NCBI GenBank assembly: GCA_029858305.1
Contig: JAOUFI010000052.1
Span: 1 to 15,271 of the forward strand
Direction of reading: 5' to 3'
Source of the DNA: Candidatus Thorarchaeota archaeon
GTDB taxonomy: Archaea > Asgardarchaeota > Thorarchaeia > Thorarchaeales > Thorarchaeaceae
Length of the DNA: 15,271 bases
Positions 1 to 13,687 of the stretch are shown here, piece after piece. Within the stretch, counting starts at the first letter, position 1. Every line of letters begins with the position of its first letter. Under the pieces are notes generated by a model, which saw nothing but the letters and a program-made list of their open reading frames with translations, searched no databases and was not told the origin of the DNA. The position numbers were made by a program, and so were the translations under genes.

Positions 1-10
1 GTAGGATGAT

Positions 11-40
11 ACTACCGGCGGCGCCACTTCTTCTCTAGAA
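11..40 (+). repeat. Direct repeat R1: core ACTACCGGCGGCGCCA (11-26) plus tail type A
   Basis: The 16-nt core is identical to 1501-1516. The tail CTTCTTCTCTAGAA matches the tail of R3 (CTCTTTCTTAAGAA) at 10/14. Confidence 0.9.
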
Positions 41-85
41 ATACTAATATCCATGATTCAATATACGTCCAATTGAGGAGTATCT

Positions 86-1441: not shown

Positions 1442-1500
1442 AACATATCGGAATGAGAACAATGGCCAAAAGGCTTCCATCAGAGGTGGTGGATAGAGCA

Positions 1501-1542
1501 ACTACCGGCGGCGCCATCATTCATTTTTCACTGTAGTTAATT
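1501..1542 (+). repeat. Direct repeat R2: core ACTACCGGCGGCGCCA (1501-1516) plus tail type B
   Basis: The core is identical to R1. The tail TCATTCATTTTTCACTGTAGTTAATT matches the tail of R4 at 22/26. Confidence 0.92.
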
Positions 1543-1547
1543 GCCAA

Positions 1548-3293
1548 TTACTCTATCTTCTTGGCAGGAATCACGAATCCCCCGGAAACGTAGGCAAACT
1601 CGGTTATCTGTCCAGACTCATCCTTCTTGAAAGTAATACTCAGCAGATCCGAGTCCTTTGATTTGAATCTCATCCCCCGTACTGCTTCGAGTTCAATTGC
1701 TTGCTGTCCGGATGGTACACATATAATTGAATTATCCCCCTTTAGCGAGATTTCTACTATCTGCCCAGCGACATCATATTTTCCAAGAAGCGTCGAGAGA
1801 AATCTTTTGTCACTCATATACTTATCAGGAACTCGTCTAACAAGAATAGGTGGAACTGTATCTTCGAGTTTTATCGAGAATCCAATTACTTCACCATTAG
1901 AATCTATTTGAAAGGTGAGAAGATCCTTGAAATCTAATCGTGTTACCTCAAACTGAAATGTATCATAATGATAATGAGTCAGGGGATATTCTATTGTGCC
2001 ATACTTCACTTTGAGCTCTCCATCCACCTCGCGGAAGTTGAATGTTCCGTAGCCTGGATGATTGTATGTCCCTGCATACTCCTGCAGGTCGAACGTGGGT
2101 TTTGTATTAGTCTTTCGTAGCTTTAGGGATTGATCTCCACTTTCCTTTATTACCTTGGTCTGACTATCCTCTAGAGGTTTTAATAATCCATTCCAATCAA
2201 CGGGGTCCAGTCCTAGAATTTTATCAACTAGATGGTACATTGCAGCGACCTGAAGGTAGGAGTTTGATTGGTTCACAATAGCCATGGCTCCAATGTTTTC
2301 ATCTGGCAAGAACGCCATACGACAGGTTGAACCATCGATTCCCCCACTATGGGTAACCACTCTATATCCTCTATACATTACACCCATCCAACCAAGTGCA
2401 TAGGTATTCATACGGAATACTTTCTGTTCCGGGATATACATACTAAGGATGCCTTGAACGGATTCAATAATGACTGGATCATGAGTCATTCTCAGGTTCT
2501 CTGGGGATACAAGCTGCTTGTTGCCAACCATGCCATTGTTAAGATGAAATATTAGCCACTTTCCCATGTCATCAACACTCGCATTAATGCATCCAGCACC
2601 AGTCGCAGAGTCATTTGCAATAAACTCGCACTCAATTATGTCAAATTCCTCTTTCTGATAGTCAATCTTGTATGGTTTTGCGTAATTTGGGGTCTTTTGC
2701 ATGTCAGTCACAGAGAAGTTTGAGTTTTTCATTCCTAAAGGCTTGAAGATTCGCTTTGAAATGAATTCGTTGTAGCTCACTCCCGACAGCTCCTCGATAA
2801 TCACAGAAGCTGCCAGATACATGAGATTGCAGTACTGATACTTCATACGAATGTCTGCACTCAGGTCCAAGTATGGTAATCTATCGAGTATCTGACGGTA
2901 GGTGAATTCATCATTTATCCAAATCATTTCATGTCGGGGTAGGCCAGTTCTGTGTGACAATATATCCACGATTGTGACACGACTAGATGTAACAAAATCC
3001 TTCAGTCTGAACCGTGGAATGAATTCCTGGATTGGTGTGTTCCATTCAAGTTTTCCTTCATCCACAAGCATCGCGATTGCAGTGCTAGTAAATGACTTCG
3101 TACATGATGCAATGGGATGTGTCGTGTCCTTTGTCATCAGAAGCTTATTTGCTACATCACGATAGCCGAAGCCCTTTGAATAAATGACCTCATTATCTTT
3201 GATCGCAATTGCTGCGATCCCCGGAGCTCTCCATAATTCTAGAGTTTCCATTAGATGATTGTCAAATTTCCTAGTATCAACACTTTGCTTCAA
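1548..3293 (-). CDS. Serine hydrolase of the beta-lactamase/penicillin-binding (AmpC-like) family with a C-terminal DUF3471-like region
   Basis: 581 aa with the SxxK motif (ASCTK), LSHRTGL, YxN (YCN) and HSGG. The segment LQEYAGTYNHPGYG...LTHYHYDTF is typical of DUF3471. TTG start preceded by AGGGGA. No signal peptide. Confidence 0.9.
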   Translation of the reverse strand: MKQSVDTRKFDNHLMETLELWRAPGIAAIAIKDNEVIYSKGFGYRDVANKLLMTKDTTHPIASCTKSFTSTAIAMLVDEGKLEWNTPIQEFIPRFRLKDFVTSSRVTIVDILSHRTGLPRHEMIWINDEFTYRQILDRLPYLDLSADIRMKYQYCNLMYLAASVIIEELSGVSYNEFISKRIFKPLGMKNSNFSVTDMQKTPNYAKPYKIDYQKEEFDIIECEFIANDSATGAGCINASVDDMGKWLIFHLNNGMVGNKQLVSPENLRMTHDPVIIESVQGILSMYIPEQKVFRMNTYALGWMGVMYRGYRVVTHSGGIDGSTCRMAFLPDENIGAMAIVNQSNSYLQVAAMYHLVDKILGLDPVDWNGLLKPLEDSQTKVIKESGDQSLKLRKTNTKPTFDLQEYAGTYNHPGYGTFNFREVDGELKVKYGTIEYPLTHYHYDTFQFEVTRLDFKDLLTFQIDSNGEVIGFSIKLEDTVPPILVRRVPDKYMSDKRFLSTLLGKYDVAGQIVEISLKGDNSIICVPSGQQAIELEAVRGMRFKSKDSDLLSITFKKDESGQITEFAYVSGGFVIPAKKIE

Positions 3294-3375
3294 GCTTCAA
3301 TCCCCTTATTCCTTAGAAAACAGAATTCGAATTGTATTATAAATCAATGACAATCATCTATTTGAGTGATTTCTT

Positions 3376-3405
3376 TCTCCCGACGGCGCCACTCTTTCTT
3401 AAGAA
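3376..3405 (+). repeat. Direct repeat R3: core TCTCCCGACGGCGCCA (3376-3391) plus tail type A
   Basis: The 15 nt CTCCCGACGGCGCCA are identical to R4. The tail resembles that of R1. Confidence 0.9.
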
Positions 3406-3462
3406 TCAATCATGAGAGACTGATTGGTGTTGATGATTCTTTCATTTCTAAGTGGGGATTGT

Positions 3463-5121
3463 TCACGTCTTTCTTCTTCGAAGAAGGACAACTGCAAGAA
3501 GAGAAACGACAATTGCCCCTGTAGAAATTAAGATGATTGCATTGCCTGCAATGACTTCAGCGAACGGGCGATACGGCAAGGCATACCTATCGACAGCCAT
3601 CGCATAACCAGGAACAGCATACTCTCCAGGAAAGAGTATCTCAGTCCAATAGTTACCCATACTGACTCCATCATCCCACTGGTTGTTATGACCATTATCC
3701 TCTGCACCCTTGCCATTGTCAATGAAGTAGTTATAGTAGACCTTGTTTTCGTCAGCAGATCCTCCGAGATACAGACCAATAGTATTTCCCTGAATCGTAT
3801 TGTTTGTTATGATGCAACCAGTACTCAAACTTCCAGGACCAGATATTCCATAGTGAAAATTTCTGATAGTATTCAGATGAACAATTGAGCGATTGCTGAG
3901 GTCAATGCCAGCACTATTGGTTAATCCAGTTCCAATCAATGTGTTGTTGTAGATATAACAATTAACTCCACTATTCACAATGCCATAAGATCCGACCTGT
4001 GCGATGGTATTATGCGAAACCTCGGCATCGTTTCTTCTAGTGTCAATGTAAATACTCCCATTAATGATGTCATTATATGAAATCCTTGCAGATTCTCCCT
4101 TAGCAGTAACGCTGGTGTTGAAAAAGTGGCAGTTGGATATGGTACCATTCTCTACAAACGTTATTCTTGCTGTGGTAAAGTCAGTGAACGTGCAATTCTT
4201 GACAAAAGCGTTCCATGCAGTCTGAAAATCAGGTTCTCCCCCAATATGAAAAATCGGAGGACGATGTATTGAGGGAAATTCTCGTTCAAATGTACAATCA
4301 AGGACCTTTGTATTGTTGCTGCGGACAACCCTGAAGGCCATATCACTGTCCGATGTGAAACTGTTATTCTTTACGAAGAAGTCGGTGCAATATCGAGCAA
4401 ACAATGCCGTACTTGCGCGCCCCCCGCGGATTTCATTGTCCTCTAAATAGATACTCTCACATCTCTCAAGCCATATGTGGTATCCGAGTTCTCCAGTGTT
4501 TCCAAGTGGGTCGCAGAGAAATAGATTGGTATTGATATCGATGTTAGAAGAATAGGATATTTTCAGTCCTTGGGCATAATATAGCTCAATTCTAGAATCC
4601 GCAATTGTGCAATCATTAGAATTTTCTACCATGACCGCGGATTCGCTGCAATTCCATACTCTGCAGTTTTCAATGGTGATGGGTATCGCATCTGCTGCTA
4701 TACCCACAGAGCAGTTCAAGACATCACAGTCCTCAACTTGTGCAATTCCGCTTTGCAGAGAAATTCCAGCATATTCAAGCCAAGGTCCTCGACTACCAGA
4801 AACCATGCAATTGCGGATTGTGTAATAAATGCCCGGGCATCCAGTAATCCTAATACAGGAAGAATCCCATGCTTCATGACCAACTGATGTGATTGATAGG
4901 TCTTCTATTAGAAACGGAGCGCTCTCAGATCCACTGCCATTAAAGCCCAAGCTTATGAAATCGCTAGGAGAGGATATGAGAATCTGTGGATGAGGAACTC
5001 TAATCTGATTTGATGATGCGAAAAATGCATCTGGTCTATTGTTGAATGTCTTCGCATTGAATCCATTGGTCACAAGCATGATTAAGAGGAGCATGATTGT
5101 GAGTAATTGCTTGGATGCCAT
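3463..5121 (-). CDS. Membrane-anchored right-handed parallel beta-helix (NosD-like) surface protein, divergent paralog of 86..1441
   Basis: Same architecture as 86..1441: signal peptide, GFNGSGSESAPFLIEDL N-cap, beta-helix repeats, NQWDDGVSMGNYW...DRY C-cap, TM helix and RRRKT tail. The ORF is open to 5199, but ATG 5121 (MASKQLL) follows GGAGG and puts the signal peptide at the N-terminus. Confidence 0.85.
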   Translation of the reverse strand: MASKQLLTIMLLLIMLVTNGFNAKTFNNRPDAFFASSNQIRVPHPQILISSPSDFISLGFNGSGSESAPFLIEDLSITSVGHEAWDSSCIRITGCPGIYYTIRNCMVSGSRGPWLEYAGISLQSGIAQVEDCDVLNCSVGIAADAIPITIENCRVWNCSESAVMVENSNDCTIADSRIELYYAQGLKISYSSNIDINTNLFLCDPLGNTGELGYHIWLERCESIYLEDNEIRGGRASTALFARYCTDFFVKNNSFTSDSDMAFRVVRSNNTKVLDCTFEREFPSIHRPPIFHIGGEPDFQTAWNAFVKNCTFTDFTTARITFVENGTISNCHFFNTSVTAKGESARISYNDIINGSIYIDTRRNDAEVSHNTIAQVGSYGIVNSGVNCYIYNNTLIGTGLTNSAGIDLSNRSIVHLNTIRNFHYGISGPGSLSTGCIITNNTIQGNTIGLYLGGSADENKVYYNYFIDNGKGAEDNGHNNQWDDGVSMGNYWTEILFPGEYAVPGYAMAVDRYALPYRPFAEVIAGNAIILISTGAIVVSLLAVVLLRRRKT

Positions 5122-5290
5122 TTGCCCACTCGCCTCCGACCAGCAGATGACCTTCTTTATAGAAAAATCTTCTGGATTCGTTGGCTTTCGTTTTCTCATA
5201 TCAGAACTCTACTGGTGCTTCTTTTCTCCTGTGGAAAACCTCATTTGATTTCTGGTACTTTGTATTAGTGATAGCTGGGTGTGAAGAAAA

Positions 5291-5914
5291 TTGAGAGGCG
5301 AAACAAGCATTTCAGATTTGAGAGCGAATGGATTTTACATAGACGAGAAATGCGATGAAATTAATGAAGTACTTAGAAAGAATCCTGAGTATGCGGAGTA
5401 TGAAGTAAGACGCCAACACATAGGAGATGATTGGACCCTCGACCCATACATCATTCAAGATGAAGGTAAAGCTGAGCTGATGCTACTCGCGCCGGAGGAA
5501 GTCAATACTCTAAACGATTCCGAACTCCTTGCCTATATTGATGTGCAAATGAAACGTCTGGACTGTTCAGAGAATTACGCTCTCTTCTTACTGGCTACAC
5601 TGGTACTGGCTCCTACATCAGCGATCAACTCACTAATGGTGATAGTCTATCAATCGACCATAGACATCGCATGAGCATTAGCAACTACATTCGTACTTGT
5701 TTTTCTCACCCTTCTTTCTGGAGCTATGTACTATACAAGACGAAAAACCATGAGGACTAATAGGCGCCAAGTCGATTTGGAAGCTGCTGGGGAGAATTCG
5801 ATATTTCTTTCGGCTTTGCAAAAATTAGCGGCTTTGTCTGATAACAGTGAGTGGAAAGACCAAGAGAATAGAAAAAGACTGCAATACATCAAAAATAGAC
5901 TTGAGAGCATGTAA
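5291..5914 (+). pseudogene. Two-TM hypothetical membrane protein interrupted by an in-frame TGA at 5672-5674
   Basis: ORFs 5291..5674 and 5726..5914 are in the same frame. The 17 intervening codons (ALATTFVLVFLTLLSGA) are open and form a TM helix followed by basic residues (YYTRRK). Confidence 0.75.
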
Positions 5915-5955
5915 CTCCCGACGGCGCCATCACTCATTTTTCACTATTGGTAATT
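5914..5955 (+). repeat. Direct repeat R4: core ACTCCCGACGGCGCCA (5914-5929) plus tail type B
   Basis: The core matches R3 and the tail matches R2 (22/26). Its first base is the last base of the upstream TAA stop. Confidence 0.92.
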
Positions 5956-6045
5956 TCTTATATTGGGTGATGAGGGTGTAATCTTTCTTAAAAAGACTAA
6001 AAGGTTAAGACTAAAGTTGAATATTCCAACAAGCGGTAGTTATCC

Positions 6046-6444
6046 ATGCAATTAGAATCTATGATTCTATATTATTCATTGAATATTGCAGGACTTATTG
6101 GTCAAATATTGTCACTATTGGTATTGATAGCACTTCTCCGCCCTCTGAAAGGATCGATGCGAAGCATCGTATACGCTCTGGGTTCAGCAATCTCATTCTT
6201 TATTGGCAGTTTTTATTTGGCTTTCGTAGCAATCTTTCAATATCTCGCTTCGCCTGCAGCCAATATCCATCTTAGCCTACCACTATCATCCATCACAATT
6301 ACAGTTGGATGGCATAATATTCTTGGAGTTGTCTGTGGTTACCTGCTACTCATCATCGCTATAGTCCAATACAGGAAAGATCATACAAAGCAACTATCAG
6401 TGAATCCACTTGAATCCAATGAATCCTCCTTTTCTTTAGGTTGA
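6046..6444 (+). CDS. Hypothetical integral membrane protein (about 3 TM segments)
   Basis: 132 aa with three long hydrophobic stretches and a polar C-terminal tail. Confidence 0.7.
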   Translation: MQLESMILYYSLNIAGLIGQILSLLVLIALLRPLKGSMRSIVYALGSAISFFIGSFYLAFVAIFQYLASPAANIHLSLPLSSITITVGWHNILGVVCGYLLLIIAIVQYRKDHTKQLSVNPLESNESSFSLG

Positions 6445-6504
6445 GGGAACTGACAGATGAGAAAGAGGGTACAGCCAGAATTTTCAGATATCGACAAGTC
6501 CCTA

Positions 6505-7752
6505 TCATGGAGAATACCGATAATCGAATACATTGTCTAACCAGTCAAACATCACCTGCTGACCGCGAGATATATTGTCAAGCTGACAATGGTCATATGA
6601 ACCATCCTGTTCTAGGGTAAAGACATGAAGCATCTTGTTTTTCGAGCCAATTCTCTGCATGAATGCCCTCGCTTGCTCGAGCATGGCTTCACCTTCGTGC
6701 ATACTAACCAATGCAAGAGTGGGACATGTAATCTTGTGTACTTCTTCGGTGATGATGCTGTCCAGTTTTGGCTTCCAATCCATCCATTCAATGAAATTCG
6801 GACAGCCCCACGACCAGATGCCATAGTAGACAAGACCCCTCAACACCGGAGTGTTCTTCAACTTCTTCTCTATAGCTTTTTCCAGAAGACGGCTCGGCAT
6901 GGCTCTAAACATACGACTCATCTGACTGCTCCTTTGTAGCGCAGGTATGTCTATGAGTGGACTGTCAGCTATTAGAGCTTTAATTCTTGATTCGCCTGTG
7001 GTGACTTGAGAGGCAACATAGCCGCCATAACTATACCCTGAGAGTGCAATTCGTTCATCGACTTCAGGAAGACTTCCCAGCAGTTCGAGAGCTGCAGCGA
7101 AGGGAGCAGAATAGTTCGATCGCTTCACACAATCTGAGTAGAGATGAACTGCTCCGCGATGACCAGGATAATCGAATGTGAAGAAGTTATAGCCTCTACG
7201 CACTGCCGAGAATCCAACAGCTATCAGTATCTCCTCAGCAGAGGAATCGTTCCCACCTACTGCAAACATTGTGGGCCTCGTCAAGTCGGAGTCATCCGGG
7301 CGCATGAAGTAGCCGGGGAGCATCTTTCCCTCGTATGGAACCTCTAGTATCCGAATCTCCGGATTAAATAATGAACACGCTTTTCTGAAGGCATCAACAC
7401 TCCGACGCCAAGTTTCATGAAAACGGTGATGACTTGGAGTACATGCGTACTCAGCAGTTCTCCAGTAGTTTGAAGCTCGGAGAAATGCCTCTCTAGCACT
7501 TATTATATGCTGATCTCTCAGAGACTCATCACCAAGAGCCTCCACACGTTCTGCGAGAGCTGCCCACTCAGATATCCAGCTATCACCATCTTTTTCATCT
7601 ATTCGGCGAGCAGCATAGAGGCATTCTCCAATTTCTGCAGCCTTTTCGCTCATGAACTCTAGAGTCCGGTTGAATGCCCAATCGGTTTCTGGATCCTTGA
7701 ATATGCCAATACTTCTTGGTGCTCTCGCCAAGTCTAGTTTTAGTCGAGCCAT
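6505..7752 (-). CDS. Alpha/beta hydrolase (FrsA / 2,6-dihydropseudooxynicotine-hydrolase-like esterase-peptidase)
   Basis: Nucleophile elbow GYSYG, RASNYWRTAEY, VPYEGKMLPGY and a C-terminal DHCQ catalytic His. The ORF-track GTG start at 7782 lies inside an operator palindrome, so ATG 7752 (MARLK) is preferred. Confidence 0.85.
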   Translation of the reverse strand: MARLKLDLARAPRSIGIFKDPETDWAFNRTLEFMSEKAAEIGECLYAARRIDEKDGDSWISEWAALAERVEALGDESLRDQHIISAREAFLRASNYWRTAEYACTPSHHRFHETWRRSVDAFRKACSLFNPEIRILEVPYEGKMLPGYFMRPDDSDLTRPTMFAVGGNDSSAEEILIAVGFSAVRRGYNFFTFDYPGHRGAVHLYSDCVKRSNYSAPFAAALELLGSLPEVDERIALSGYSYGGYVASQVTTGESRIKALIADSPLIDIPALQRSSQMSRMFRAMPSRLLEKAIEKKLKNTPVLRGLVYYGIWSWGCPNFIEWMDWKPKLDSIITEEVHKITCPTLALVSMHEGEAMLEQARAFMQRIGSKNKMLHVFTLEQDGSYDHCQLDNISRGQQVMFDWLDNVFDYRYSP

Positions 7753-7767
7753 ATTGTGCACCACGAG

Positions 7768-7812
7768 GTGAGCAATGCTCACTTATATGTTAGTGAGCAA
7801 AACTCACTTATA
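7768..7812. promoter_or_regulatory. Two tandem palindromic operators with adjacent TATA-like boxes in a divergent promoter, probably bound by the adjacent TetR
   Basis: GTGAGCA-A-TGCTCAC (7768-7782, perfect 7-1-7) and AGTGAG-CAAAA-CTCACT (7792-7808, 6-5-6) lie 25 bp apart, and each runs into TTATA. Confidence 0.85.
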
Positions 7813-7835
7813 GATGTATCTTTCAGAGTATACGT

Positions 7836-8435
7836 ATGACTCGTCCTCAACAACGTAACAAGGCCGCAAAGATTGAAGCTATTCTTCAGACTGCCATGAT
7901 ACTCTTCAGAACACGAGGGTATCCTGCCACCACAACCAACCAGATAGCAGCAGAGGCAGGAGTGAGTATCGGTCTTCTCTATAAGTACTTCCCGGGCGGC
8001 AAACCTGAGATCGCCAGAAGAACTGTTGAAAATATCGGAGAGGTGATCGTTTCAGAGGAGTTTAGTGATGTGACAATCGAAGATGCTTCAGTTGTTCTAC
8101 GTAGGGCATTGCTTAGGTTCATCAAAGGGCACAGACAGATTTCACCAAACCTTGCTGCCTTTGAAATAGCTTCCTTTGAAGATCCTAAAACTGAAGAGAT
8201 GGGAAATCAACTATATACGATTGGTCAAGAGCCGATATTGATGGTACTAGAGAAACTTACTGGACAAAAGAGGACTGGTAATCTTGAGAAATGGGCTAAC
8301 GTTATCTTTCATGTGATTGATTCTGTTACCCACAGGCATGTATTACATGGGGGACTAATGATGTCTGATGAGATGTTGGCAGATTTTCTAGTCCAAATCA
8401 TAGTAAGAAGCATCCCGGCGGTAATAGGAGAATGA
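7836..8435 (+). CDS. TetR/AcrR family transcriptional regulator
   Basis: N-terminal HTH signature ILQTAMILFRTRGYPATTTNQIAAEAGVSIGLLYKYFPGGK; 199 aa. Confidence 0.95.
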   Translation: MTRPQQRNKAAKIEAILQTAMILFRTRGYPATTTNQIAAEAGVSIGLLYKYFPGGKPEIARRTVENIGEVIVSEEFSDVTIEDASVVLRRALLRFIKGHRQISPNLAAFEIASFEDPKTEEMGNQLYTIGQEPILMVLEKLTGQKRTGNLEKWANVIFHVIDSVTHRHVLHGGLMMSDEMLADFLVQIIVRSIPAVIGE

Positions 8436-8511
8436 ATCCCCTGAGAAACGAACACGTGAAACGAGTGCAATATGTTGAAAATGCACTGACAGGGACTTAT
8501 TCATAGAAAAA

Positions 8512-8820
8512 CTACTTCACAGGTGCCTTTCTATCGACACGCAATTTCTTATCCTCTTCATACTTCTCGATGAATTTCTGCTGGATATTAAAGTAGCTCG
8601 CCTCATAGACCTGATAGTTGTTATCCGAATCAAATCCCCACCCATCCCAATCAACAATCAACTGCATTATTTTGTCATATATCTCTATAATCTCAGGATA
8701 TGGGCACCGTATGTCTAGATTCCCATCTTGAATTGCATCTTCGTACTCTTTTGCCATTTTTTGAGCTCTTTCATGCAGAACATTGATTTCGTCGAAGGGA
8801 TCAGGTTTCGTTCCATTCAT
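8512..8820 (-). CDS. Small acidic helical hypothetical protein
   Basis: 102-aa ORF filling the gap between tetR and the aldo/keto reductase. No recognised motif. Confidence 0.6.
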   Translation of the reverse strand: MNGTKPDPFDEINVLHERAQKMAKEYEDAIQDGNLDIRCPYPEIIEIYDKIMQLIVDWDGWGFDSDNNYQVYEASYFNIQQKFIEKYEEDKKLRVDRKAPVK

Positions 8821-8899
8821 CTTTGTTCAGTACCAGCTAATTCTCTAACTACTCATTAGTCACATCTGGGTAGCTAATAGTCTTTCAAAATCAATAATG

Positions 8900-9778
8900 T
8901 CATTTATAGTCACTTGTACTAGATGCTATTGTCTTCATATCAAACTCATCAACCATAGCATGCATTTCTGCATTAGAAGGGGTTTTATCATAACGAAGGG
9001 CAGCATCCAACATCTTGGGTAAAAGCCGAATGTCGCCTGCTGTAATCAGAAAACTATCCTTAAGACTCAATGACCAATGGACCGACTTGTCAATCGCATT
9101 TTGATTCTCTAATGGTTCATAGAAGTAGGTGTTGTAAGTCGGTGGACGTTGACCCCAGGGCTGCCGAACAATGGACTGTATAGTCTGCACTGCTACCCTA
9201 CGCTTGCGGCAAAGCTCCACTAAATCATTGAAGTATGCCGCGTAACGAGATTTCTGCATCTGCAAATAGTTGTATGGTAGCATGACTGAATCGAATTCAA
9301 ATCGTTCCAAACTTTGTTTGTGCATTGCTGGTACGTTATCACCATGGCCTGTCACTCCTAGAAATCGTACTAGACCCTTGTCACGTGCTTCAATAAAGGC
9401 CTCCAAAGCCCCTCCGGGACCCATCACTCTTTGCCAACCTACTGGATTAGTCAACCCATGCATCTGCCAAAGGTCAATATAATCAACTCCCATGATGCTC
9501 AAAGATTTCTCCAAATCATCCTTTGCTCCTTCGTATGATCGCTTGCGCGACTTTGTTGCAAGGAAAAAATCACCACGATGTTTTTTCATCCACAATCCAA
9601 TGCATTTCTCAGCATTTCCGTACATGGGAGCTGTATCAATATGATTCACACCATATTTCAGCAATATTTTAAGAACATGATCTGCTTCAGTCTGTGTCGC
9701 GTTATTCAATGCATACGACCCAAAGATAACACGCGTGCTAGCATGTTTCGTACGACCAAAAGAGTTTAGGGGTATCAT
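8900..9778 (-). CDS. Aldo/keto reductase
   Basis: GVNHIDTAPMYG (catalytic Asp/Tyr), FLATK (Lys), DYIDLWQMH (His) and GLVRFLGVTGH. GGAGG upstream on the minus strand. Confidence 0.95.
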   Translation of the reverse strand: MIPLNSFGRTKHASTRVIFGSYALNNATQTEADHVLKILLKYGVNHIDTAPMYGNAEKCIGLWMKKHRGDFFLATKSRKRSYEGAKDDLEKSLSIMGVDYIDLWQMHGLTNPVGWQRVMGPGGALEAFIEARDKGLVRFLGVTGHGDNVPAMHKQSLERFEFDSVMLPYNYLQMQKSRYAAYFNDLVELCRKRRVAVQTIQSIVRQPWGQRPPTYNTYFYEPLENQNAIDKSVHWSLSLKDSFLITAGDIRLLPKMLDAALRYDKTPSNAEMHAMVDEFDMKTIASSTSDYK

Positions 9779-9917
9779 CTATCACTGCCTCCATGACCTA
9801 TGAGCGGCCTGTGCGATATGTACAGCCTATTAATTATGGGTGTTTCACTCGAAGCAATCGAGTGCGAGAAGTACATGAAAAGCGGATTTTTTCAGAAACA
9901 ACAACACTGAACTTGAT

Positions 9918-10619
9918 CTACTCTGGAATATCAACAAGTGGTTGCAGGCTCGAATCAGGATTTCTGCAGGTATAGGTCATGTTTAAGCTGGAATCAAGAG
10001 GATCATACTCGACAATCTTATCGTCAAGATTCTTGATTCTCCGGCAGATGCCAATAACATCATGCGGTTCGAAACCAAGTGTTTCAGCTACCAAAAGTAA
10101 GTCGGTTCTGTGTCGTTTCCTAACAATATCCCTTACAAGTTGCTCCCAACGCGTCTTGAACGACAATCGAAGGCTTGACAAAGCAACGAAATCAAGTAAC
10201 CAAGTATTTGCAGGGTTCCCAAGGGGGGTCGGTTCACCATCTCGTTTCCCATTTAGAGTAGGCATCTTGACTTTTCGAGACGCCCTGATACCTGCGACGA
10301 ATCCACTTGTTCCAGAAATTTTGGCATACCAATCGGGGTCCCGAGTCTGATGTGCACTGCTATCAATACTTAGATAACCTTCATCCTTCCAGAATGGCAC
10401 TGAAAACTCAGGATCCTCCTTCCATCGTTCCCATTTGACATAACGAGACTCGTCAAGATTTCGCATTCTCTCCCGTGCTTTTTCCGCATCTGGAACGAGT
10501 ATACTGTTTGAAAGTCCAATAAGTAACCTTTCAGCAATGCCTTCCTTTCCCGATAGAAGCTCTTCCTCTGCCTTCTTCAAAGCACCCTCCGCTCGCCTAA
10601 TGACGTCAGGATAGCTCAT
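9918..10619 (-). CDS. Hypothetical protein, possibly with a C-terminal winged-helix-like region
   Basis: Long ORF open to 10640; ATG 10619 follows GGTGGTG. The C-terminal segment TDLLLVAETLGFEPHDVIGICRRI is HTH-like (weak inference). Confidence 0.65.
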   Translation of the reverse strand: MSYPDVIRRAEGALKKAEEELLSGKEGIAERLLIGLSNSILVPDAEKARERMRNLDESRYVKWERWKEDPEFSVPFWKDEGYLSIDSSAHQTRDPDWYAKISGTSGFVAGIRASRKVKMPTLNGKRDGEPTPLGNPANTWLLDFVALSSLRLSFKTRWEQLVRDIVRKRHRTDLLLVAETLGFEPHDVIGICRRIKNLDDKIVEYDPLDSSLNMTYTCRNPDSSLQPLVDIPE

Positions 10620-10748
10620 AGACACCACCGCCAAAAACATCTAATGATACATCTCCGGAGGACCAAATAAGATTGGTGCTACTCCCCTAAGACAGTAAGA
10701 TTGGGAAATGGGTACTTATCAGAAGCTTATCGTGAAACACCATAAGAA

Positions 10749-11621
10749 TTATAGCATTCTTTCAAGCAAAGTCAGAGCCCACTCCTCATCTTCATTTTCA
10801 TCCAGCTGAACCCAGTCTAGATTGTGCATAGTTTCTACATAATCTGTTTCGAAGGCCACGAAGATAGAGGTACATCCACTCTTCGAGGCTATGTCTATAT
10901 GATACGACAGATGATCTAGGAACCCTGTCCTATCAGAAGCGTAGATTGTGAAAGACCATTGCATCCCAGAACTGACATCACGGGCGAATCCCAATGAGAA
11001 CGATGTGAGCTTACCAGCACGCGTCTGAACCCAAAACCGTGCAGTCGAACCTATTTTGTTAAGACCCTTTGGCGTGACATCGAATGCCTTCCAGTCGTGG
11101 ATGAGGATGTTGAATGGAATCAAGTTGGCATCAATTAGATCTTGACACACCTCATCCGCAGAAACCTCAAGTAGTGGGAAACCTCTCATCCGCCAAGAGA
11201 TTTCAGATGGGTTCTCCTGCCAATGAACAGCAAGGTCGAATTTTCTCTTCATTCCTACTACTTCAGCAAGATGCAATGATGTTTCATTACCTACTGAAGT
11301 TGTATATCGAATGCACTTTACTGGAATGCTCTTTGCAAGCTGAACAACATACTGGGTCAGGCTAGTTGCAAGTCCCTTTCCTCGATGATTTGGATGTACT
11401 CGAAGAGCCTCCATCCATCCAGTTTTTCCATCATCGATTACTCGTAGATTAGCTAGGGCAATAATATGACCGTCATACTCAACACCCACAGGATAGGAGT
11501 TCTTGTCTTTCAGCCAAGTGTCAAAATAGTAGGGGATATAGTCATGTCCCTCCCATGTGTGCCGTGCAATTTCAAGAATGTCATCCTTATCTGATTCTCT
11601 AAGCGGTCGTATATCGTTCAT
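10749..11621 (-). CDS. GNAT family N-acetyltransferase with a C-terminal extension
   Basis: N-terminal IRPLRESD and the acetyl-CoA motif A LRVHPNHRGKGLAT. Start placed at ATG 11621 (ORF open to 11705). Confidence 0.9.
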   Translation of the reverse strand: MNDIRPLRESDKDDILEIARHTWEGHDYIPYYFDTWLKDKNSYPVGVEYDGHIIALANLRVIDDGKTGWMEALRVHPNHRGKGLATSLTQYVVQLAKSIPVKCIRYTTSVGNETSLHLAEVVGMKRKFDLAVHWQENPSEISWRMRGFPLLEVSADEVCQDLIDANLIPFNILIHDWKAFDVTPKGLNKIGSTARFWVQTRAGKLTSFSLGFARDVSSGMQWSFTIYASDRTGFLDHLSYHIDIASKSGCTSIFVAFETDYVETMHNLDWVQLDENEDEEWALTLLERML

Positions 11622-11720
11622 TCGGAAGACCTGGATGAAGGATATTTCTTTCAGAGATTTGAAGTAAGTGATACGAACCCAAAAGTCTGCGTCCCTAGAG
11701 CTCAAACTTAATTTTTCATA

Positions 11721-12092
11721 CTAATCCCCTGTAGGAGTCACATCCTTTCCCTCAACCATCAAGATTGCAGTGCGTACCGGAGCTCTTGTACGATGGGATA
11801 GTCCTAGTGGCACTAGGAACCCTTGCCCAGGCTTCAAATCTACCGTTCTGTCCCCTAAATCGATGTGTAATAGACCAGCAATGACATAGAAGAACTCATC
11901 CTCGTGGTCATGCTTGTGCCAATGAAATTCACCGTGTATTACTCCTAATCGGATTACGCAGTTGTTTACCTCACAGAGGGAGAAGTTCTGCCAGTCCTTT
12001 TGACATTCTTCAATCAATCTGGGGATATCTATCAGCTCGAGAGCCTCAAATTTGATATCGGTATCAATTGAATAGCGATTCTGGTTATCCAT
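11721..12092 (-). CDS. Cupin domain protein
   Basis: Cupin motif 1 GEFHWHKHDHEDEFFYVIAG and motif 2 PGQGFLVPLGLSHRT. Confidence 0.92.
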   Translation of the reverse strand: MDNQNRYSIDTDIKFEALELIDIPRLIEECQKDWQNFSLCEVNNCVIRLGVIHGEFHWHKHDHEDEFFYVIAGLLHIDLGDRTVDLKPGQGFLVPLGLSHRTRAPVRTAILMVEGKDVTPTGD

Positions 12093-12115
12093 TTTGAAGA
12101 CTCCTATATTATGAA

Positions 12116-12565
12116 TTACTTCTTTCGTAGACGCAAGAGGCGAGGTCCGTATTTTGCCGCGACCAGAATGATGACGAGGACAATGATTGCTCCAGTAATT
12201 AAGGTACCCACACCTTCGGCAATAAATACGACCTGAGTACTGGTCCGATGCACTACTCCAAGATTGTCGATTCCTACTAATGTGATATTAGTTGGTCCTC
12301 CAAGATATTCTCCGGTATTGAACAGCCAACTGACACTATTACCAGTGACGAAGTGGACCTCATTCTCATTGAAGTAAACAGTCAGGTTCTGGATTGAATC
12401 CGGGCCATTCCCCTCTAGTAGAAAGCTCCCACTGATATAATTACCAAACGCCATTCCAAAGGACCGATTGATGGAGAGCGAGAGCGTGTCTTGTGCAAGC
12501 ACATTCATTGGTATGAGAGATGAAAGTGTAATTCCAATCAATATGGTAAGAGCAACTCTCCGCAT
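12116..12565 (-). CDS. Small secreted, membrane-anchored protein with a beta-rich (Ig-like?) domain
   Basis: Signal peptide MRRVALTILIG...VLA, a beta-strand-rich middle, a C-terminal TM helix and basic tail. Start uncertain (12565 or 12595). Confidence 0.7.
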   Translation of the reverse strand: MRRVALTILIGITLSSLIPMNVLAQDTLSLSINRSFGMAFGNYISGSFLLEGNGPDSIQNLTVYFNENEVHFVTGNSVSWLFNTGEYLGGPTNITLVGIDNLGVVHRTSTQVVFIAEGVGTLITGAIIVLVIILVAAKYGPRLLRLRKK

Positions 12566-12670
12566 CACGTGCAAGTTCTTGGAGTGTGCTATCACGTCAA
12601 TAGATACCTCAACACCCCGCTCAGAATGAGTGATAGAAAAATTGTGTGGTGTGAGTTTGATTGAATCGGA

Positions 12671-12946
12671 TTATTTTTCGATAGGTTTTCGAGAGATTTT
12701 GTAGACGACTTGATGATTATAGTCACTGCAACCGACTGTCATGTAATCACTTCCATCCTCAGACTCCGTAAAGCTACCTCCTGACTCCATCACCATTATC
12801 CATGGGTAGAGAATATGGAATGAGCTTGGGCACATCTTGCCTCGATCTTCTGGATAATCGTAGGTGTCGCCAATTTTTTGCCCCATCGAACACTTGCCCT
12901 GATTCAGAATATCGATTACCTCAATTCTTACTTTATATCTTGCCAT
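12671..12946 (-). CDS. TIGR04076-like small Cys-containing protein
   Basis: Pattern YKVRIEV...GKCSMGQKIGD...MCP...GCSD...VVYKISR. Start MARYK at 12946 (ORF open to 12958). Confidence 0.75.
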   Translation of the reverse strand: MARYKVRIEVIDILNQGKCSMGQKIGDTYDYPEDRGKMCPSSFHILYPWIMVMESGGSFTESEDGSDYMTVGCSDYNHQVVYKISRKPIEK

Positions 12947-13057
12947 TAGTTCCACCAACAGAATATTGGCTGTAACAGCAATCTAGTATTAGAAACAACT
13001 TTTCCAAGCAATACTCAGACAAGCAATACTGAAAACGGACGAGTACAAGCTGCAGGC

Positions 13058-13666
13058 ATGGCCTCCAATAAATCTGACCATGTATCAATGGCCGTCTGGT
13101 GTACGTTAATACCACCTGAAGAATTAGATAGATTCTCTAAGAACGAGGATGGCCTACGAAGTGTGAGTGAAGCGTATGAGGATTGGTTAGTGTCCATGAG
13201 GGGAAAGTCCTTCGTTGGAGCGGATGTGGGCATAATGTTGGATCGGATTCGTATTCTTATGATAAACATAGGAATAGCTTGTGCGACTAATCGTGAATTA
13301 GCTGAAGAGGTACAAGAGGTTGTTTCCGACCATCTACGAAGACGGAGTCTTTCAATGGTGGATAGACTTCCAAATGATACTATTGAGAAAGTTGCTGTCA
13401 AAGAAACATTAGCAATATTCTTCCGTGACCTCAAATTCACACGGGACATATTTCCCGAGGAGGATGTAAAGGGGATTATCCCTGTAAAGGTGTCCATTAC
13501 GCCAGATTCTTCCAAGGGTCATCTTGGTCGGCTTGTGGGGTCAAAATCAAAAACAGCTAATGTTGAGAAGGGGCAAGTACTCAAAGCAGCATTGCTAGAG
13601 AGCTCAAATGTCCTGAAAAAGCTCTATATGCGCCTTCTTAGTCCAGATCCCTGGGGAACATACTAG
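13058..13666 (+). CDS. Hypothetical alpha-helical protein
   Basis: 202-aa ORF with protein-like composition, divergent from the upstream gene and convergent with the phosphoesterase. No recognised family. Confidence 0.75.
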   Translation: MASNKSDHVSMAVWCTLIPPEELDRFSKNEDGLRSVSEAYEDWLVSMRGKSFVGADVGIMLDRIRILMINIGIACATNRELAEEVQEVVSDHLRRRSLSMVDRLPNDTIEKVAVKETLAIFFRDLKFTRDIFPEEDVKGIIPVKVSITPDSSKGHLGRLVGSKSKTANVEKGQVLKAALLESSNVLKKLYMRLLSPDPWGTY

Positions 13667-13687
13667 GATGGTCGTCGGCGAGTATAC

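What the first reader, a model, noticed from the sequence alone, without database searches (positions are those of the whole stretch)
5914..5929. Repeat core reads as a tRNA 3' end (end of T-loop, T-stem, acceptor strand, discriminator)
ACT-CCCGA-CGGCGCC-A parses as tRNA positions 58-60, 61-65, 66-72 and 73 of a tRNA that would begin GGCGCCG. Pyrimidine/T-rich tails follow, as after archaeal tRNA genes. Established: integrases commonly target tRNA 3' ends and duplicate them as att sites, and repeated integration leaves serial tRNA fragments (e.g. tycheposon-built islands in Prochlorococcus). The unusual part is that the units are only single-gene sized. The R1/R2 variant (ACTACCGG) would break the conserved C61, so it is either a diverged att site or the tRNA reading is wrong. 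Prediction: an intact tRNA lies on the + strand upstream of this window.
Basis: inference. Interest (0 to 1): 0.75.

Follow-up and report, generated by a model that had tools for sequence, protein, structure and literature searches.

The report
tRNA-Asn end repeats bound gene cassettes
The short repeat is the tail end of an asparagine tRNA gene, copied again and again at the borders of single genes inserted behind that tRNA in an Asgard (Thor-type) archaeon, and no enzyme that could have inserted them is in sight.

Summary
The repeat is real: four co-oriented copies at 12-26, 1502-1516, 3377-3391 and 5915-5929. This genome encodes CCA in 29 of 29 full-length tRNA genes scored. The core therefore reads T-stem 62-65, acceptor 66-72, G73, CCA, of tRNA-Asn(GTT), which begins GCCGYCG.

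Both variants occur as ends of intact tRNA-Asn genes in relatives, so R1/R2 does not break C61. The predicted intact tRNA exists: a three-intron tRNA-Asn on contig C113, same strand, 258-421 nt upstream of the window.

In congeners the same locus, between conserved housekeeping flanks, holds tRNA-Asn followed by one to five such fragments. I measured 27 units of 324-3114 nt (median 921); 21 hold one ORF, in either orientation.

No tyrosine or serine recombinase or reverse transcriptase was found in this assembly, and no homologue of the congeners' integrase-locus ORFs in 40 arrays. Contigs from the probable source sample carry an extra ~1.2 kb unit bounded by the core.

In this genome 11 of 29 tRNA genes have such downstream copies. 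A LAGLIDADG-fold protein family sits convergent to tRNA 3' ends.

Verdict: a known kind (att duplication at a tRNA) in an unusual cassette-like, integrase-less form.

The parts
12..26 (+). Copy 1 of the tRNA-Asn 3' end (CTAC-CGGCGGC-G-CCA; positions 62-76), followed by the trailer CTTCTTCTC up to 35
   Evidence: PWM built from relatives only: 41.5 bits. The same copy stands at C113:111-97 in the 120-nt contig overlap.
86..1441 (+). Unit 1 cargo: a 451-aa right-handed beta-helix / NosD-like protein. It is the only ORF of 60 aa or more in the 1490-nt unit.
   Evidence: PF13229 2.9e-26, PF05048 4.7e-24.
1502..1516 (+). Copy 2 (CTACCGGCGGCGCCA). The right flank TCATTCATTTTTCACTGTAGTTAATT goes with the next unit.
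   Evidence: (family D2). The same right flank, but a different left half of the core, stands before the orthologous unit in congener G007.
1548..3293 (-). Unit 2 cargo: a 581-aa beta-lactamase-family serine hydrolase with DUF3471, the only ORF of the 1875-nt unit. An orthologous unit of 1874 nt, bounded by the same cores, is in G007.
   Evidence: PF00144 4.1e-52, PF11954 2.2e-18.
2779..2794 (+). Look-alike with 3 mismatches inside the hydrolase ORF. Taken as chance, not a part of the array.
   Evidence: Not recovered by the PWM scan at 8 bits or more.
3377..3391 (+). Copy 3 (CTCC-CGACGGC-G-CCA), trailer CTCTTTCTT
   Evidence: 32.3 bits.
3463..5199 (-). Unit 3 cargo a: a 578-aa beta-helix / NosD-like protein
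   Evidence: PF05048 1.1e-24, PF13229 1.6e-24.
5291..5914 (+). Unit 3 cargo b: a 'fam0' two-helix membrane protein, here split into two ORFs (5291-5674 and 5726-5914). Its stop codon abuts copy 4, as in its relatives.
   Evidence: tblastn 5285-5911, 38-40% identity to full-length 216-219 aa members.
5915..5929 (+). Copy 4, the copy named in the finding (CTCCCGACGGCGCCA). Right flank TCACTCATTTTTCACTATTGGTAATT. It is the last detectable copy.
   Evidence: In contigs of run X1 a further 1216 nt sit between two copies of 5914-5928.
5930..10748 (.). Genes without detectable tRNA fragments: a 132-aa ORF, an alpha/beta hydrolase, TetR, an aldo/keto reductase and a 240-aa ORF. Partly shared with congeners; either an older part of the island or a semi-conserved flank.
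10749..15270 (-). Conserved downstream flank of the island: GNAT, cupin, fam14, fam2, fam3 (on the + strand), metallophosphoesterase and a MutS-domain ATPase
   Evidence: The same families in the same order lie beside the arrays of congeners.

Best explanation
The 15-nt core is the 3' end of the tRNA-Asn(GTT) gene: T-stem 62-65, acceptor strand 66-72, discriminator G73 and genome-encoded CCA. It usually continues into about 8 nt of the tRNA's pyrimidine trailer. The window begins inside a hypervariable island that starts at the tRNA-Asn gene, 258-421 nt upstream on the adjoining contig, and ends at conserved housekeeping genes.

Each copy is an attachment-site duplicate left where a gene-sized piece of DNA was inserted by site-specific recombination at the tRNA's 3' end or at an existing copy. 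The exchange lies in the invariant half CGGCGCCA. So the left half of each core travels with the unit on its left, and the trailer with the unit on its right.

I commit to the reading that the units are small non-autonomous cassettes: one gene with its own promoter plus one site. On this reading they are moved in and out by a recombinase supplied in trans, from an unbinned virus or plasmid or from an unrecognised family.

Shown: the tRNA identity, the register, the intact gene upstream, the island structure, the unit sizes, and the polymorphism at the cores.

Inferred: site-specific recombination, the crossover position, and mobilisation in trans.
For: Identity and register:
- CCA follows 29 of 29 tRNA genes.
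- Intact tRNA-Asn genes of relatives end in both core variants.
- An intron-less 76-nt copy in G018 aligns to the G000 gene with three insertions, and the exons alone are called tRNA-Asn(GTT).
- None of 37 fragments has a 5' acceptor partner within 260 nt, against 11 of 11 intact genes.

Island:
- C113 holds the upstream flank (ZIP transporter, GGR, thioredoxin, QRPTase) and the window holds the downstream flank. The same families flank the arrays of congeners.
- The 12-mer CCGRCGGCGCCA occurs in 19 of 24 congeners, often clustered; 5 matches of the reversed control across all 41 genomes searched.

Cassette character:
- There are 27 units of 324-3114 nt, median 921. Of these, 21 have one ORF of 60 aa or more, and 17 of 35 ORFs are co-oriented with the fragments.
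- ORFs fill about 87-94% of the units I checked.
- fam0 genes end 0-8 nt before a core in the window, in congeners and in metagenome contigs.
- The small DUF6487 unit has different neighbours in six genomes.

Boundaries:
- Conservation begins abruptly at C62, and CGGCGCCA is nearly invariant.
- G000 copy 2 and its G007 counterpart share the right flank but differ in the left half of the core.

Recent change:
- A contig of run X1 carries 1216 extra nt between two copies of 5914-5928.
- Other contigs change context exactly at base 12 (X1) and at 5914 (X2, X4).

Generality: 11 of 29 tRNA genes of G000 have co-oriented downstream copies. Opposite-strand and reversed controls gave 0 of 29 each.
Against: - No recombinase was found. 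PF00589, PF16795, NF040815 and PF00239 gave nothing in G000.
- PF00589 is found in only 9 of 28 genomes of the genus, and none of those 21 loci carries the core.
- No homologue of the ORFs at those integrase loci occurs in 40 array loci.
- No free circular cassette and no attP-bearing element was seen. Two scans of viral contigs gave only chance hits and phage tRNA-Ser genes.
- Some units do look like decay. The 269 nt between the tRNA and copy 1 hold only the last 74 codons of a 683-aa gene, and the window's fam0 gene is split.
- A 15-24 nt direct repeat could also give deletions by slippage or short homology, so the polymorphism does not by itself prove an enzyme.
- That evidence comes from assembled contigs, not reads, and X1 is probably the source sample.
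- At the DNA level, only 3 of 15 pairs of the DUF6487 unit are more alike inside the unit than in the flanks. The medians are about 0.6 everywhere, which is the baseline.
- All genomes are MAGs (G000 is 88.9% complete), so absences are weak.
Confidence: 0.5

Rival explanations
1. The copies are att-site duplicates, but the units are eroded remnants of larger autonomous elements (proviruses, integrated plasmids, tycheposon-like elements). These elements brought their own integrase and later lost it, along with most of their genes.
For: - This is the textbook route to serial partial tRNAs. Passages of the tycheposon preprint 10.1101/2020.12.28.424599 and of PMC9897764 describe it.
- Unit 0 is a clear remnant: only the C-terminal 74 codons of fam15 remain.
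- The fam0 gene in the window is split.
- Several cores are degenerate.
- At other tRNAs of G000 the identity blocks (19-60 nt, starting in the T loop, the variable region or the anticodon loop) look like classical integrase sites.
Against: - Of 27 units, 21 hold exactly one apparently intact ORF that fills most of the unit.
- No integrase pseudogene or homologue occurs in 40 arrays, and none in the Pfam scans of cargo.
- Units as small as 324-413 nt recur in six genomes with borders at the cores.
- Random erosion should leave gene fragments and spacers of irregular size.
Confidence: 0.3
2. A homing-endonuclease-type process, not a recombinase, drives the island. The fam15 protein (coiled coil plus a double LAGLIDADG fold) cuts the roughly 24-bp tRNA-end-plus-trailer site. 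Break repair from other genomes or other copies then brings in, removes or duplicates the DNA between sites.
For: - The fam15 model (pLDDT 78.8, pTM 0.70) matches archaeal intron and intein LAGLIDADG endonucleases: I-Tsp061I at E 7e-6 with TM 0.60, and I-DmoI at TM 0.58-0.63.
- The protein atlas gives the same lead.
- One of 4 members has a weak PF14528 hit.
- Two invariant Asp residues (D390, D487) lie at the ends of the two predicted motif helices.
- The family occurs in 17 of 28 genomes of the genus.
- In 14 of 28 loci examined, a convergent tRNA gene (Asn, Phe, Ser, Arg and others) ends 9-623 nt from the protein's C-terminus.
- In G000 its remnant ends 14 nt from the tRNA-Asn gene.
- The conserved site (15 + about 8 nt) has the length I recall for LAGLIDADG targets.
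Against: - Homing as it is known does not leave direct repeats of the target.
- G000 has arrays at 11 tRNAs but only one fam15 remnant.
- Cleavage is untested.
- Sequence searches against PDB found nothing.
- The Pfam hit is below its cut-off.
- For 14 of 28 loci no tRNA was detected, although both detectors miss multi-intron tRNAs.
Confidence: 0.1
3. The copies are kept because they work as signals, for example a terminator or processing signal borrowed from the tRNA's end and trailer. On this reading they spread by tandem duplication of a gene-plus-signal module rather than by insertion.
For: - The trailer CTTCTTYT is conserved after the copies and resembles the trailers of real tRNA genes.
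- fam0 paralogues are always co-oriented with and abut a copy, and two stand side by side in G006.
Against: - Half of the cargo ORFs (18 of 35) face the other way.
- Unrelated genes carry the same site.
- There is no acceptor partner (0 of 37), no hairpin and no Rfam match in the window.
- The copies are strictly polar to the tRNA gene at 11 loci.
- Contexts change exactly at the core.
Confidence: 0.05
4. The copies descend from mature tRNA used as a primer for reverse transcription (a primer-binding-site-like origin), and the units are retro-copies.
For: The copies cover the 3'-terminal 15 nt including CCA. From recall, that is the part of a tRNA that primes retroelement cDNA synthesis.
Against: - CCA is encoded in the genes here, so it says nothing about an RNA origin.
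- The copies continue into the gene's untranscribed or trimmed trailer.
- At other tRNAs the blocks extend 19-60 nt, past the T loop.
- No RVT_1 was found in 5 of 5 genomes searched.
Confidence: 0.02

Closest known systems
Genomic islands integrated at tRNA genes by tyrosine integrases, where the target gene is regenerated and a 3' fragment is displaced (Islander/TIGER-type islands; Williams 2002, cited from recall and from the reference list seen)
   Same: - An intact tRNA stands at one end.
- Co-oriented displaced 3' fragments lie downstream and are strictly polar.
- Variable cargo sits between conserved flanks.
- Serial copies come from repeated use of one site.
   Different: - No integrase is present in or near any array.
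- Units are 0.3-3.1 kb with one gene each, instead of roughly 9-23 kb and larger elements (passages of PMC9897764).
- The identity block is only 15 nt of the tRNA plus about 8 nt of trailer.
Tycheposon-built islands of Prochlorococcus (bioRxiv 10.1101/2020.12.28.424599; passages read)
   Same: - Several tRNA genes per genome serve as island anchors.
- Partial tRNAs separate neighbouring insertions, and newcomers push older ones inward.
- Cargo is niche-type accessory genes.
- The host otherwise has few mobile elements.
   Different: - Tycheposons carry a lineage-specific tyrosine (or large serine) recombinase and often a replication module. Neither was found here.
- Their cargo modules span several kb.
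- The host here is an Asgard archaeon.
Integron cassette arrays, including attC clusters without an integrase (CALINs) reported in Asgard archaea (PMC9668308; passages read)
   Same: - Arrays consist of compact, mostly one-gene units, each ending in the same short recombination site.
- The arrays usually lack a nearby integrase.
- Cassette content differs between close relatives.
   Different: - The site is a 15-24 nt tRNA end with no attC-type imperfect palindrome.
- Gene orientation is random (17 of 35).
- The array is anchored at a tRNA gene rather than at attI/intI.
- That paper does not contain the word tRNA (0 occurrences).
Archaeal LAGLIDADG homing endonucleases (I-DmoI, I-Tsp061I, intein endonucleases); this comparison concerns the neighbouring fam15 protein only
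   Same: A double alpha-beta-beta-alpha-beta-beta-alpha fold with two acidic residues at the motif helices.
   Different: - The gene is free-standing, with a 160-aa coiled-coil N-terminus.
- It is not inside an intron or intein.
- It lies convergent to tRNA genes.
- Sequence similarity is below the Pfam threshold.
- Activity is unknown.

Membership tests
tRNA gene 3' end (tRNA-Asn GTT) | The sequence equals positions 62-76 of an intact, foldable tRNA in this genome or in relatives | tested here: met
   Intact tRNA-Asn genes end in CTCCCGACGGCGCCA (G007, G020, G025) or CTACCGGCGGCGCCA (G010, G014, G018, G021, G023). G000's own gene ends CTCCCGATGGCGCCT, with two differences.
tRNA gene 3' end (tRNA-Asn GTT) | The copies in the window are fragments, not whole genes | tested here: met
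   ARAGORN found 0 genes in the window. Rfam gave 0 matches. None of 37 fragments has a 5' acceptor partner, against 11 of 11 intact genes.
Integrase-built tRNA-linked genomic island | An intact tRNA at one end and co-oriented 3' fragment(s) downstream | tested here: met
   The tRNA-Asn gene lies at C113:544-381 and the four copies lie in the window, all on one strand.
Integrase-built tRNA-linked genomic island | Variable content between flanks that are conserved in relatives | tested here: met
Integrase-built tRNA-linked genomic island | An integrase (tyrosine or serine recombinase) encoded in the island | tested here: not met
   - Pfam scans of all larger ORFs of the window and of C113:1-4400 gave no recombinase.
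- PF00589, PF16795, NF040815 and PF00239 gave nothing in G000.
- BLAST of ORFs from the congeners' integrase loci gave no hit in 40 arrays.
- Caveat: these are MAGs, and the genome search uses a loose first filter.
Tycheposon | A lineage-specific tyrosine or large serine recombinase facing inward at one end, with an optional replication module | tested here: not met
   Same searches as above. No primase, helicase or polymerase domain was found in the cargo.
Integron | An attC site: a 57-141 bp imperfect inverted repeat that folds as a single strand | tested here: not met
   Seven folds of 90-121 nt around the four copies, on both strands, gave z-scores from -0.49 to +1.34.
Integron | An IntI integrase with attI and co-oriented promoterless cassettes | tested here: not met
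   G000 has no PF00589 match. Only 17 of 35 cargo ORFs are co-oriented.
Integron | Compact units of mostly one gene, each ending in the same site | tested here: met
   21 of 27 units have one ORF; median unit 921 nt.
SSV-type archaeal integration (integrase gene split by its own att site) | SSV-family integrase halves flanking the element | tested here: not met
   PF16795 matched 0 of 5 genomes. ORFs reading through the cores are short antisense artefacts.
LAGLIDADG homing endonuclease (fam15 neighbour) | The LAGLIDADG double-domain fold | tested here: met
   Foldseek against PDB gave 21 matches at E 0.001 or better. The top hits are I-Tsp061I, intein endonucleases and I-DmoI, with TM 0.58-0.63 by target. 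Model pLDDT is 78.8.
LAGLIDADG homing endonuclease (fam15 neighbour) | Family membership by sequence (Pfam PF14528 above its cut-off) | tested here: inconclusive
   One of 4 members scored 20.5 bits against a cut-off of 22.5 (E 5.7e-4); the other three had no hit. A profile search against PDB sequences found nothing.
LAGLIDADG homing endonuclease (fam15 neighbour) | Site-specific DNA cleavage and homing | not testable with these tools
   There are only two invariant Asp residues at the motif-helix ends.

The most novel reading that the evidence does not exclude
Thor-type Asgard archaea run a gene-cassette system that uses the 3' ends of tRNA genes as its recombination sites. One-gene modules, each carrying one copy of a 15-30 nt tRNA end, are inserted, excised and shuffled behind about a third of the tRNA genes. 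The machinery is not a recognisable tyrosine or serine recombinase. It may involve the tRNA-end-associated LAGLIDADG-fold family. This would be an archaeal, tRNA-anchored counterpart of the integron.
Probability: 0.25. Interest if true: 0.85.

Novelty: new variant of a known kind. Interest (0 to 1): 0.62.

Why it matters
Partial tRNA copies are the standard footprint of integrated mobile elements, so the bare observation is ordinary.

What is not ordinary is the grain and the missing enzyme. The units are compact and single-gene, in either orientation. They are stacked behind a tRNA, and this recurs at 11 of 29 tRNA genes of one genome and across a whole genus. Most of that genus's assemblies show no tyrosine recombinase at all, not even XerA.

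If the units move as cassettes, this would be a route of gene gain and loss in Asgard archaea distinct from the integrons and large elements described there so far. It would also give a direct handle on how their accessory genome turns over, through a 24-bp site, defined cassettes and a candidate endonuclease family.

The result is practical for annotation too. Multi-intron tRNA genes (0 to 3 or more introns in the same tRNA-Asn among congeners) are missed by standard tRNA finders, which hides the anchor of such islands.

Tried and rejected
Rejected, because CCA is encoded and because of the intact homologues.
- **A tRNA in the window.** None was found.
- **Standard detection of the G000 tRNA-Asn.** It failed with ARAGORN without introns, with the Infernal genome search, with cmscan on C113:1-4400 at E up to 5, and with my 5'-end and T-arm patterns. 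Only ARAGORN with introns found it.
- **5S, SRP and RNase P ends.** Not pursued, because the tRNA explains the core.
- **Integrase searches.** Searches were all negative for the arrays.
- **Reverse transcriptase.** One search was negative.
- **attC-type hairpin.** One search was negative.
- **Viral contigs with the two 15-mers.** There were 175 stretches in all. None had a pyrimidine trailer in 8 or more of 9 bases. The two low-GC hits with a T-arm are phage tRNA clusters carrying tRNA-Ser. So no attP donor was found.
- **Beta-lactamase-family relatives in other Thor, Heimdall or Bathy-named records.** None of the 9 other loci I examined is flanked by the core.
- **PF14528 in five genomes.** It found only what are probably intein-type hits in large ORFs, unrelated to fam15.
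- **fam15 against NCBIfam and PDB sequences.** Nothing useful came back.
- **DNA identity test of the DUF6487 unit.** Only 3 of 15 pairs rose above baseline.
- **Read laying.**
  - The joint 1979->2818 has only 21 nt on one side, so I ignored it.
  - Parts of the stretch without cover in X2-X4 are not interpreted.
  - Loose ends at 1954, 2644, 2680, 2838, 3357, 3619 and 6463 are not at cores and are unexplained.
  - The loose end at base 9 in X4 is also left uninterpreted.
  - I did not search with the loose-end letters, because they are not from a stored locus.
- **Supplements.** Supplementary files of papers were closed. The tycheposon and Thermococcaceae supplements may list small or integrase-less cases that I could not see.
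- **Papers.** I saw search listings and passages only. No paper was read whole. My statement that tRNA-anchored one-gene arrays in Asgard archaea are not described rests on those six searches alone.
Full report
**1. Observation**

The 16 letters stand at 5914-5929. Allowing 3 mismatches, the window holds five + strand matches against 0.03 expected, and 0 of 200 shuffles reached five. Four of them (11, 1501, 3376, 5914) lie between ORFs and align over the core plus a pyrimidine-rich tail. The fifth (2779) lies inside an ORF and is not recovered by a weight matrix built from relatives only, so I treat it as chance. The window is a whole contig (C48) of a 3.04 Mb, 205-contig assembly that is 88.9% complete. 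Outside this locus the core does not occur in that assembly.

**2. Register**

ARAGORN and Infernal find tRNA genes elsewhere in the genome. All 29 full-length Infernal hits are followed directly by CCA and then by trailers such as CTTCTTCTT. The final CCA of the repeat is therefore the encoded CCA, not acceptor bases plus an A73 discriminator.

The 12-mer CCGRCGGCGCCA occurs in 19 of 24 genomes of the same genus, often several times on one contig. The reversed control gave five matches in all 41 genomes searched. In several relatives the match is the end of an intact tRNA:

- G023 reads ...GTAGG-TTCGAGC-CCTAC-CGGCGGC-G-CCA.
- G006 reads ...GGAGG-TTCGAGC-CCTCC-CGGCGGC-G-CCA.
- G007, G020 and G025 (G025 from another family of the order) end CCTCC-CGACGGC-G-CCA.

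The anticodon loop reads CTGTTAA, so this is tRNA-Asn(GTT), with the G73 that I recall as typical of tRNA-Asn. The core is thus 62-65, 66-72, 73 and 74-76, and the tRNA begins GCCGYCG. The R1/R2 form is the commonest allele of the genus and does not break C61.

Across 38 fragment sites in the window and 20 loci of congeners, conservation starts abruptly at C62. It is near-total over CGGCGCCA and continues at a lower level through CTTCTTYT. A few intact genes were included in that set by my flagging. None of 37 fragments has a complementary 5' acceptor strand within 260 nt, whereas all 11 intact genes do.

**3. The intact tRNA of this genome**

The reverse complement of contig C113 ends in 120 nt identical to window 3-122. 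C113 carries the genes that flank the tRNA-Asn gene upstream in congeners: a ZIP transporter, fam36, fam11, a geranylgeranyl-reductase-like gene, thioredoxin and QRPTase. A contig of the probable source run also runs from window base 3 into C113 sequence (compare).

Standard searches missed a tRNA there. ARAGORN with introns then called tRNA-Asn(GTT) at C113:544-381 on the strand that continues into the window's + strand. I aligned it to the intron-less 76-nt gene of G018. It shows three insertions of about 28, 30 and 30 nt, after position 37, after 43, and in the 5' T-stem. The exons alone are called tRNA-Asn(GTT).

Its end reads CTCC-CGATGGC-G-CCT, with acceptor pair GCCATCG/CGATGGC. This is a third allele and the one tRNA gene here without an encoded CCA. 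In window coordinates the gene lies at about -421 to -258, and its core equivalent starts 283 nt before copy 1.

**4. The island**

In 20 loci of congeners the same picture recurs. The order is the conserved upstream flank, then tRNA-Asn, then one to five co-oriented fragments, then the conserved downstream flank. That flank comprises GNAT, cupin, fam2, fam3, a metallophosphoesterase and a MutS-domain ATPase, which are the genes at 10749-15270 of the window.

Between consecutive fragments I measured 27 units of 324-3114 nt, median 921. Of these, 21 hold one ORF of 60 aa or more, 4 hold two and 2 hold three. Of the 35 ORFs, 17 are co-oriented with the fragments. The cargo is ordinary accessory genes:

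- beta-helix/NosD-like proteins
- a beta-lactamase-family hydrolase
- SAM methyltransferases
- PRC-barrel, TPR and CxxCxxCC proteins
- an M1 peptidase
- a cation-efflux protein
- a small DUF6487 zinc-ribbon protein
- 'fam0', a two-helix membrane protein of about 210 aa with no Pfam match

fam0 genes are always co-oriented with a fragment and end 0-8 nt before it. This holds in the window (where the gene is split into 5291-5674 and 5726-5914), in congeners and in metagenome contigs. The window's hydrolase unit (1875 nt) has an orthologous 1874-nt unit in G007 bounded by the same cores, but with a different left neighbour. Twenty further metagenome contigs with Thor-like composition show the same arrays.

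**5. Where the exchange lies**

Copy 2 of the window and its G007 counterpart share the right flank, TCAYTCATTTTTCACTRTAGTTAATT. They differ in the left half of the core, CTACCGG against CTCCCGA. Together with the near-invariance of CGGCGCCA, this fits a crossover in the 3' half of the core. The left half would then belong to the unit on the left, and the trailer to the unit on the right. This is inference. It also explains how three alleles (the tRNA, copies 1-2 and copies 3-4) coexist in one array: the left halves came in with the units, from hosts with other tRNA-Asn alleles.

**6. Recent change**

The evidence here is Logan contigs, not reads.

- In run X1, the probable source sample, one 7683-nt contig covers window 3-5928 and also 5914-6454, with 1216 other letters between. 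That is an extra unit bounded by two copies of the core.
- Another X1 contig has a different sequence up to base 11 and matches the window from base 12, the first base of copy 1.
- In X2 the sequence left of 5914 differs.
- In X4 the sequence right of 5914 differs.

So contexts change exactly at the cores in natural populations. A short direct repeat could also cause deletions without an enzyme, and X1 is not independent of the assembly.

**7. No enzyme in sight**

- PF00589, PF16795, the archaeal XerA model and PF00239 give nothing in G000, G014 or G007.
- PF00589 is found in 9 of 28 genomes of the genus, mostly on short contigs. None of those 21 loci holds the core or a tRNA.
- ORFs from those loci have no homologue in 40 array loci.
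- RVT_1 is absent from five genomes.
- The sites do not fold like attC.
- Viral contigs gave no donor.

These are MAGs, and the genome search has a first filter, so absence is not proven.

**8. A candidate neighbour**

The 269 nt between the G000 tRNA and copy 1 encode, on the other strand, the last 74 residues of 'fam15'. The match is 61% identical to residues 607-680 of a 683-aa protein and ends 14 nt from the tRNA.

Full-length fam15 genes lie beside tRNA-Asn in G002, G009, G015, G020 and one metagenome contig. In G002 and G009 they lie between two convergent tRNA-Asn genes. The copy that faces the fam15 end (or the end of the small fam32 gene that follows it in G009 and G015) is followed by the palindrome TTAACYATAGTTAA.

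fam15 has no Pfam family at E 0.01 or better in three members, and a sub-threshold LAGLIDADG_3 hit in a fourth. All source names among its 31 homologues are Thor- or Promethearchaeota-type.

An AlphaFold model built from 24 sequences has pLDDT 78.8 and pTM 0.70, with a helical N-terminus of low confidence. It matches archaeal intron and intein LAGLIDADG endonucleases: I-Tsp061I at E 7e-6 and I-DmoI at TM 0.58-0.63 by target. The protein atlas agrees. Two invariant aspartates lie at the ends of the two motif-like helices.

The family is multi-copy in 17 of 28 genomes. In 14 of 28 loci examined, a convergent tRNA gene ends 9-623 nt from the protein's C-terminus. The tRNAs are Asn, Phe, Ser, Arg and two untyped ones. 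Twelve were found by my heuristic and two more by ARAGORN only. The other 14 loci showed none, but both detectors miss multi-intron tRNAs (cmscan of ten loci found none). This is a lead to an endonuclease aimed at tRNA ends, not a demonstrated mechanism.

**9. Generality in this genome**

For 11 of 29 tRNA genes of G000, the last 12 nt recur, co-oriented, within 20 kb downstream, with true identity of 19-60 nt. Upstream this happens for 3 of 29, which are the tandem tRNA-Arg copies of C34. It happens for 0 of 29 on the opposite strand and for 0 of 29 with a reversed control. The units there also hold one or two ordinary genes (BNR, esterase, FG-GAP, LRR, methyltransferase) and no recombinase.

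**10. Comparison and verdict**

The kind is known: att-site duplication at tRNA genes, with serial partial tRNAs in islands. Passages describe it. The form is unusual:

- compact one-gene units in either orientation;
- a very short tRNA block;
- no integrase in any array;
- spread over a third of the tRNA genes;
- an Asgard host. Nearest record titles and protein names point to Thorarchaeota.

Integron-like arrays without integrases are reported in Asgard archaea. Those use attC sites, which these are not. Six literature searches found no description of tRNA-anchored one-gene arrays or of a tRNA-associated free-standing LAGLIDADG family in archaea. I saw listings and passages only, and supplements were closed.

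My odds:

| Reading | Probability |
|---|---|
| The core is the tRNA-Asn 3' end | about 0.97 |
| The copies mark insertion borders made by site-specific recombination | about 0.8 |
| Within that: small cassettes moved in trans | 0.5 |
| Within that: eroded larger elements | 0.3 |
| Endonuclease-driven | 0.1 |
| Signal or tandem duplication | 0.05 |
| Retro-origin | 0.02 |

Noticed in passing
G000:C34:45911-49983 (locus L082): Four whole tRNA-Arg-like genes (anticodons CCG, AAC, GCG, GCG as called by ARAGORN) plus one 19-nt fragment lie on one strand at 0.8-2.2 kb spacing. Some have mismatched acceptor halves. They look like serial insertions that crossed over in the anticodon loop.
   Followed up: partly
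G000, 11 tRNA loci (for example C91:7390-11020, C204:2894-4210, C5:5940-7144, C188:15238-18820): 11 of 29 tRNA genes have co-oriented copies of their 3' ends (19-60 nt) within 20 kb downstream. Opposite-strand and reversed controls gave 0 of 29. The units hold one or two ordinary genes and no recombinase.
   Followed up: partly
L382-L410 and G000:C113:137-367: A Thorarchaeota-restricted protein family ('fam15', 540-1000 aa) combines a coiled-coil N-terminus with a double LAGLIDADG fold. It is multi-copy in 17 of 28 congeners. In 14 of 28 loci it is convergent with a tRNA gene (Asn, Phe, Ser, Arg and others) that ends 9-623 nt from its stop.
   Followed up: partly
L030 (G002:C63:3662-6629), L039 (G009:C180:163-4312): Two complete tRNA-Asn genes in convergent orientation flank the fam15 gene. 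The copy that faces the fam15 end (in G009, the end of fam32, the small gene after fam15) is followed by the palindrome TTAACYATAGTTAA. Degenerate versions of that motif follow window copies 2 and 4 (1517-1542, 5930-5955).
   Followed up: no
C113:544-381 and loci L012, L013, L014, L016, L029: The same tRNA-Asn gene has 0 introns in G018, 1 in G023, 2 in G006 and 3 in G000. It has more in G007 and G020, including one in the T loop, at non-canonical positions. Infernal and default ARAGORN miss the multi-intron forms. G000's copy is the only tRNA gene seen here without an encoded CCA (it has CCT).
   Followed up: partly
whole genus (28 genomes): No tyrosine recombinase (PF00589) was detected in 19 of 28 assemblies. 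The archaeal XerA model reached its cut-off in none of 5 genomes searched. This is unusual for archaea if it is not an artefact of MAGs or of the search filter.
   Followed up: no
window 5291-5914: The fam0 membrane-protein gene is split into two ORFs (127 and 62 aa), where relatives have one ORF of 206-219 aa. This is either a pseudogene or an assembly error.
   Followed up: partly
G000:C113:6231-7667: A 22-nt copy of the tRNA-Met 3' end (2 mismatches) lies 1363 nt downstream of tRNA-Met. The two bracket the geranylgeranyl-reductase-like gene, which is conserved at this place in congeners.
   Followed up: no
window 1-2 versus C113: The first two bases of the window (GT) differ from C113 (TG) just outside the 120-nt overlap. 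A contig of run X1 has yet another sequence up to base 11. So there are several left contexts of copy 1 in the population.
   Followed up: partly
window 3247-3264 / 3348-3365: An 18-nt inverted repeat (89% complementary) lies just upstream of copy 3, downstream of the hydrolase gene's start region. It is not seen at the other copies.
   Followed up: no
L023:12792-13781, L318:8286-9266, L034:1097-2089, L041:1-778: A PLD-family nuclease-like protein with an N-terminal zinc-ribbon (Nudix_N) region recurs at the tRNA-proximal end of several arrays.
   Followed up: no
G000:C133:5823-5913: ARAGORN called a tRNA-SeC gene.
   Followed up: no
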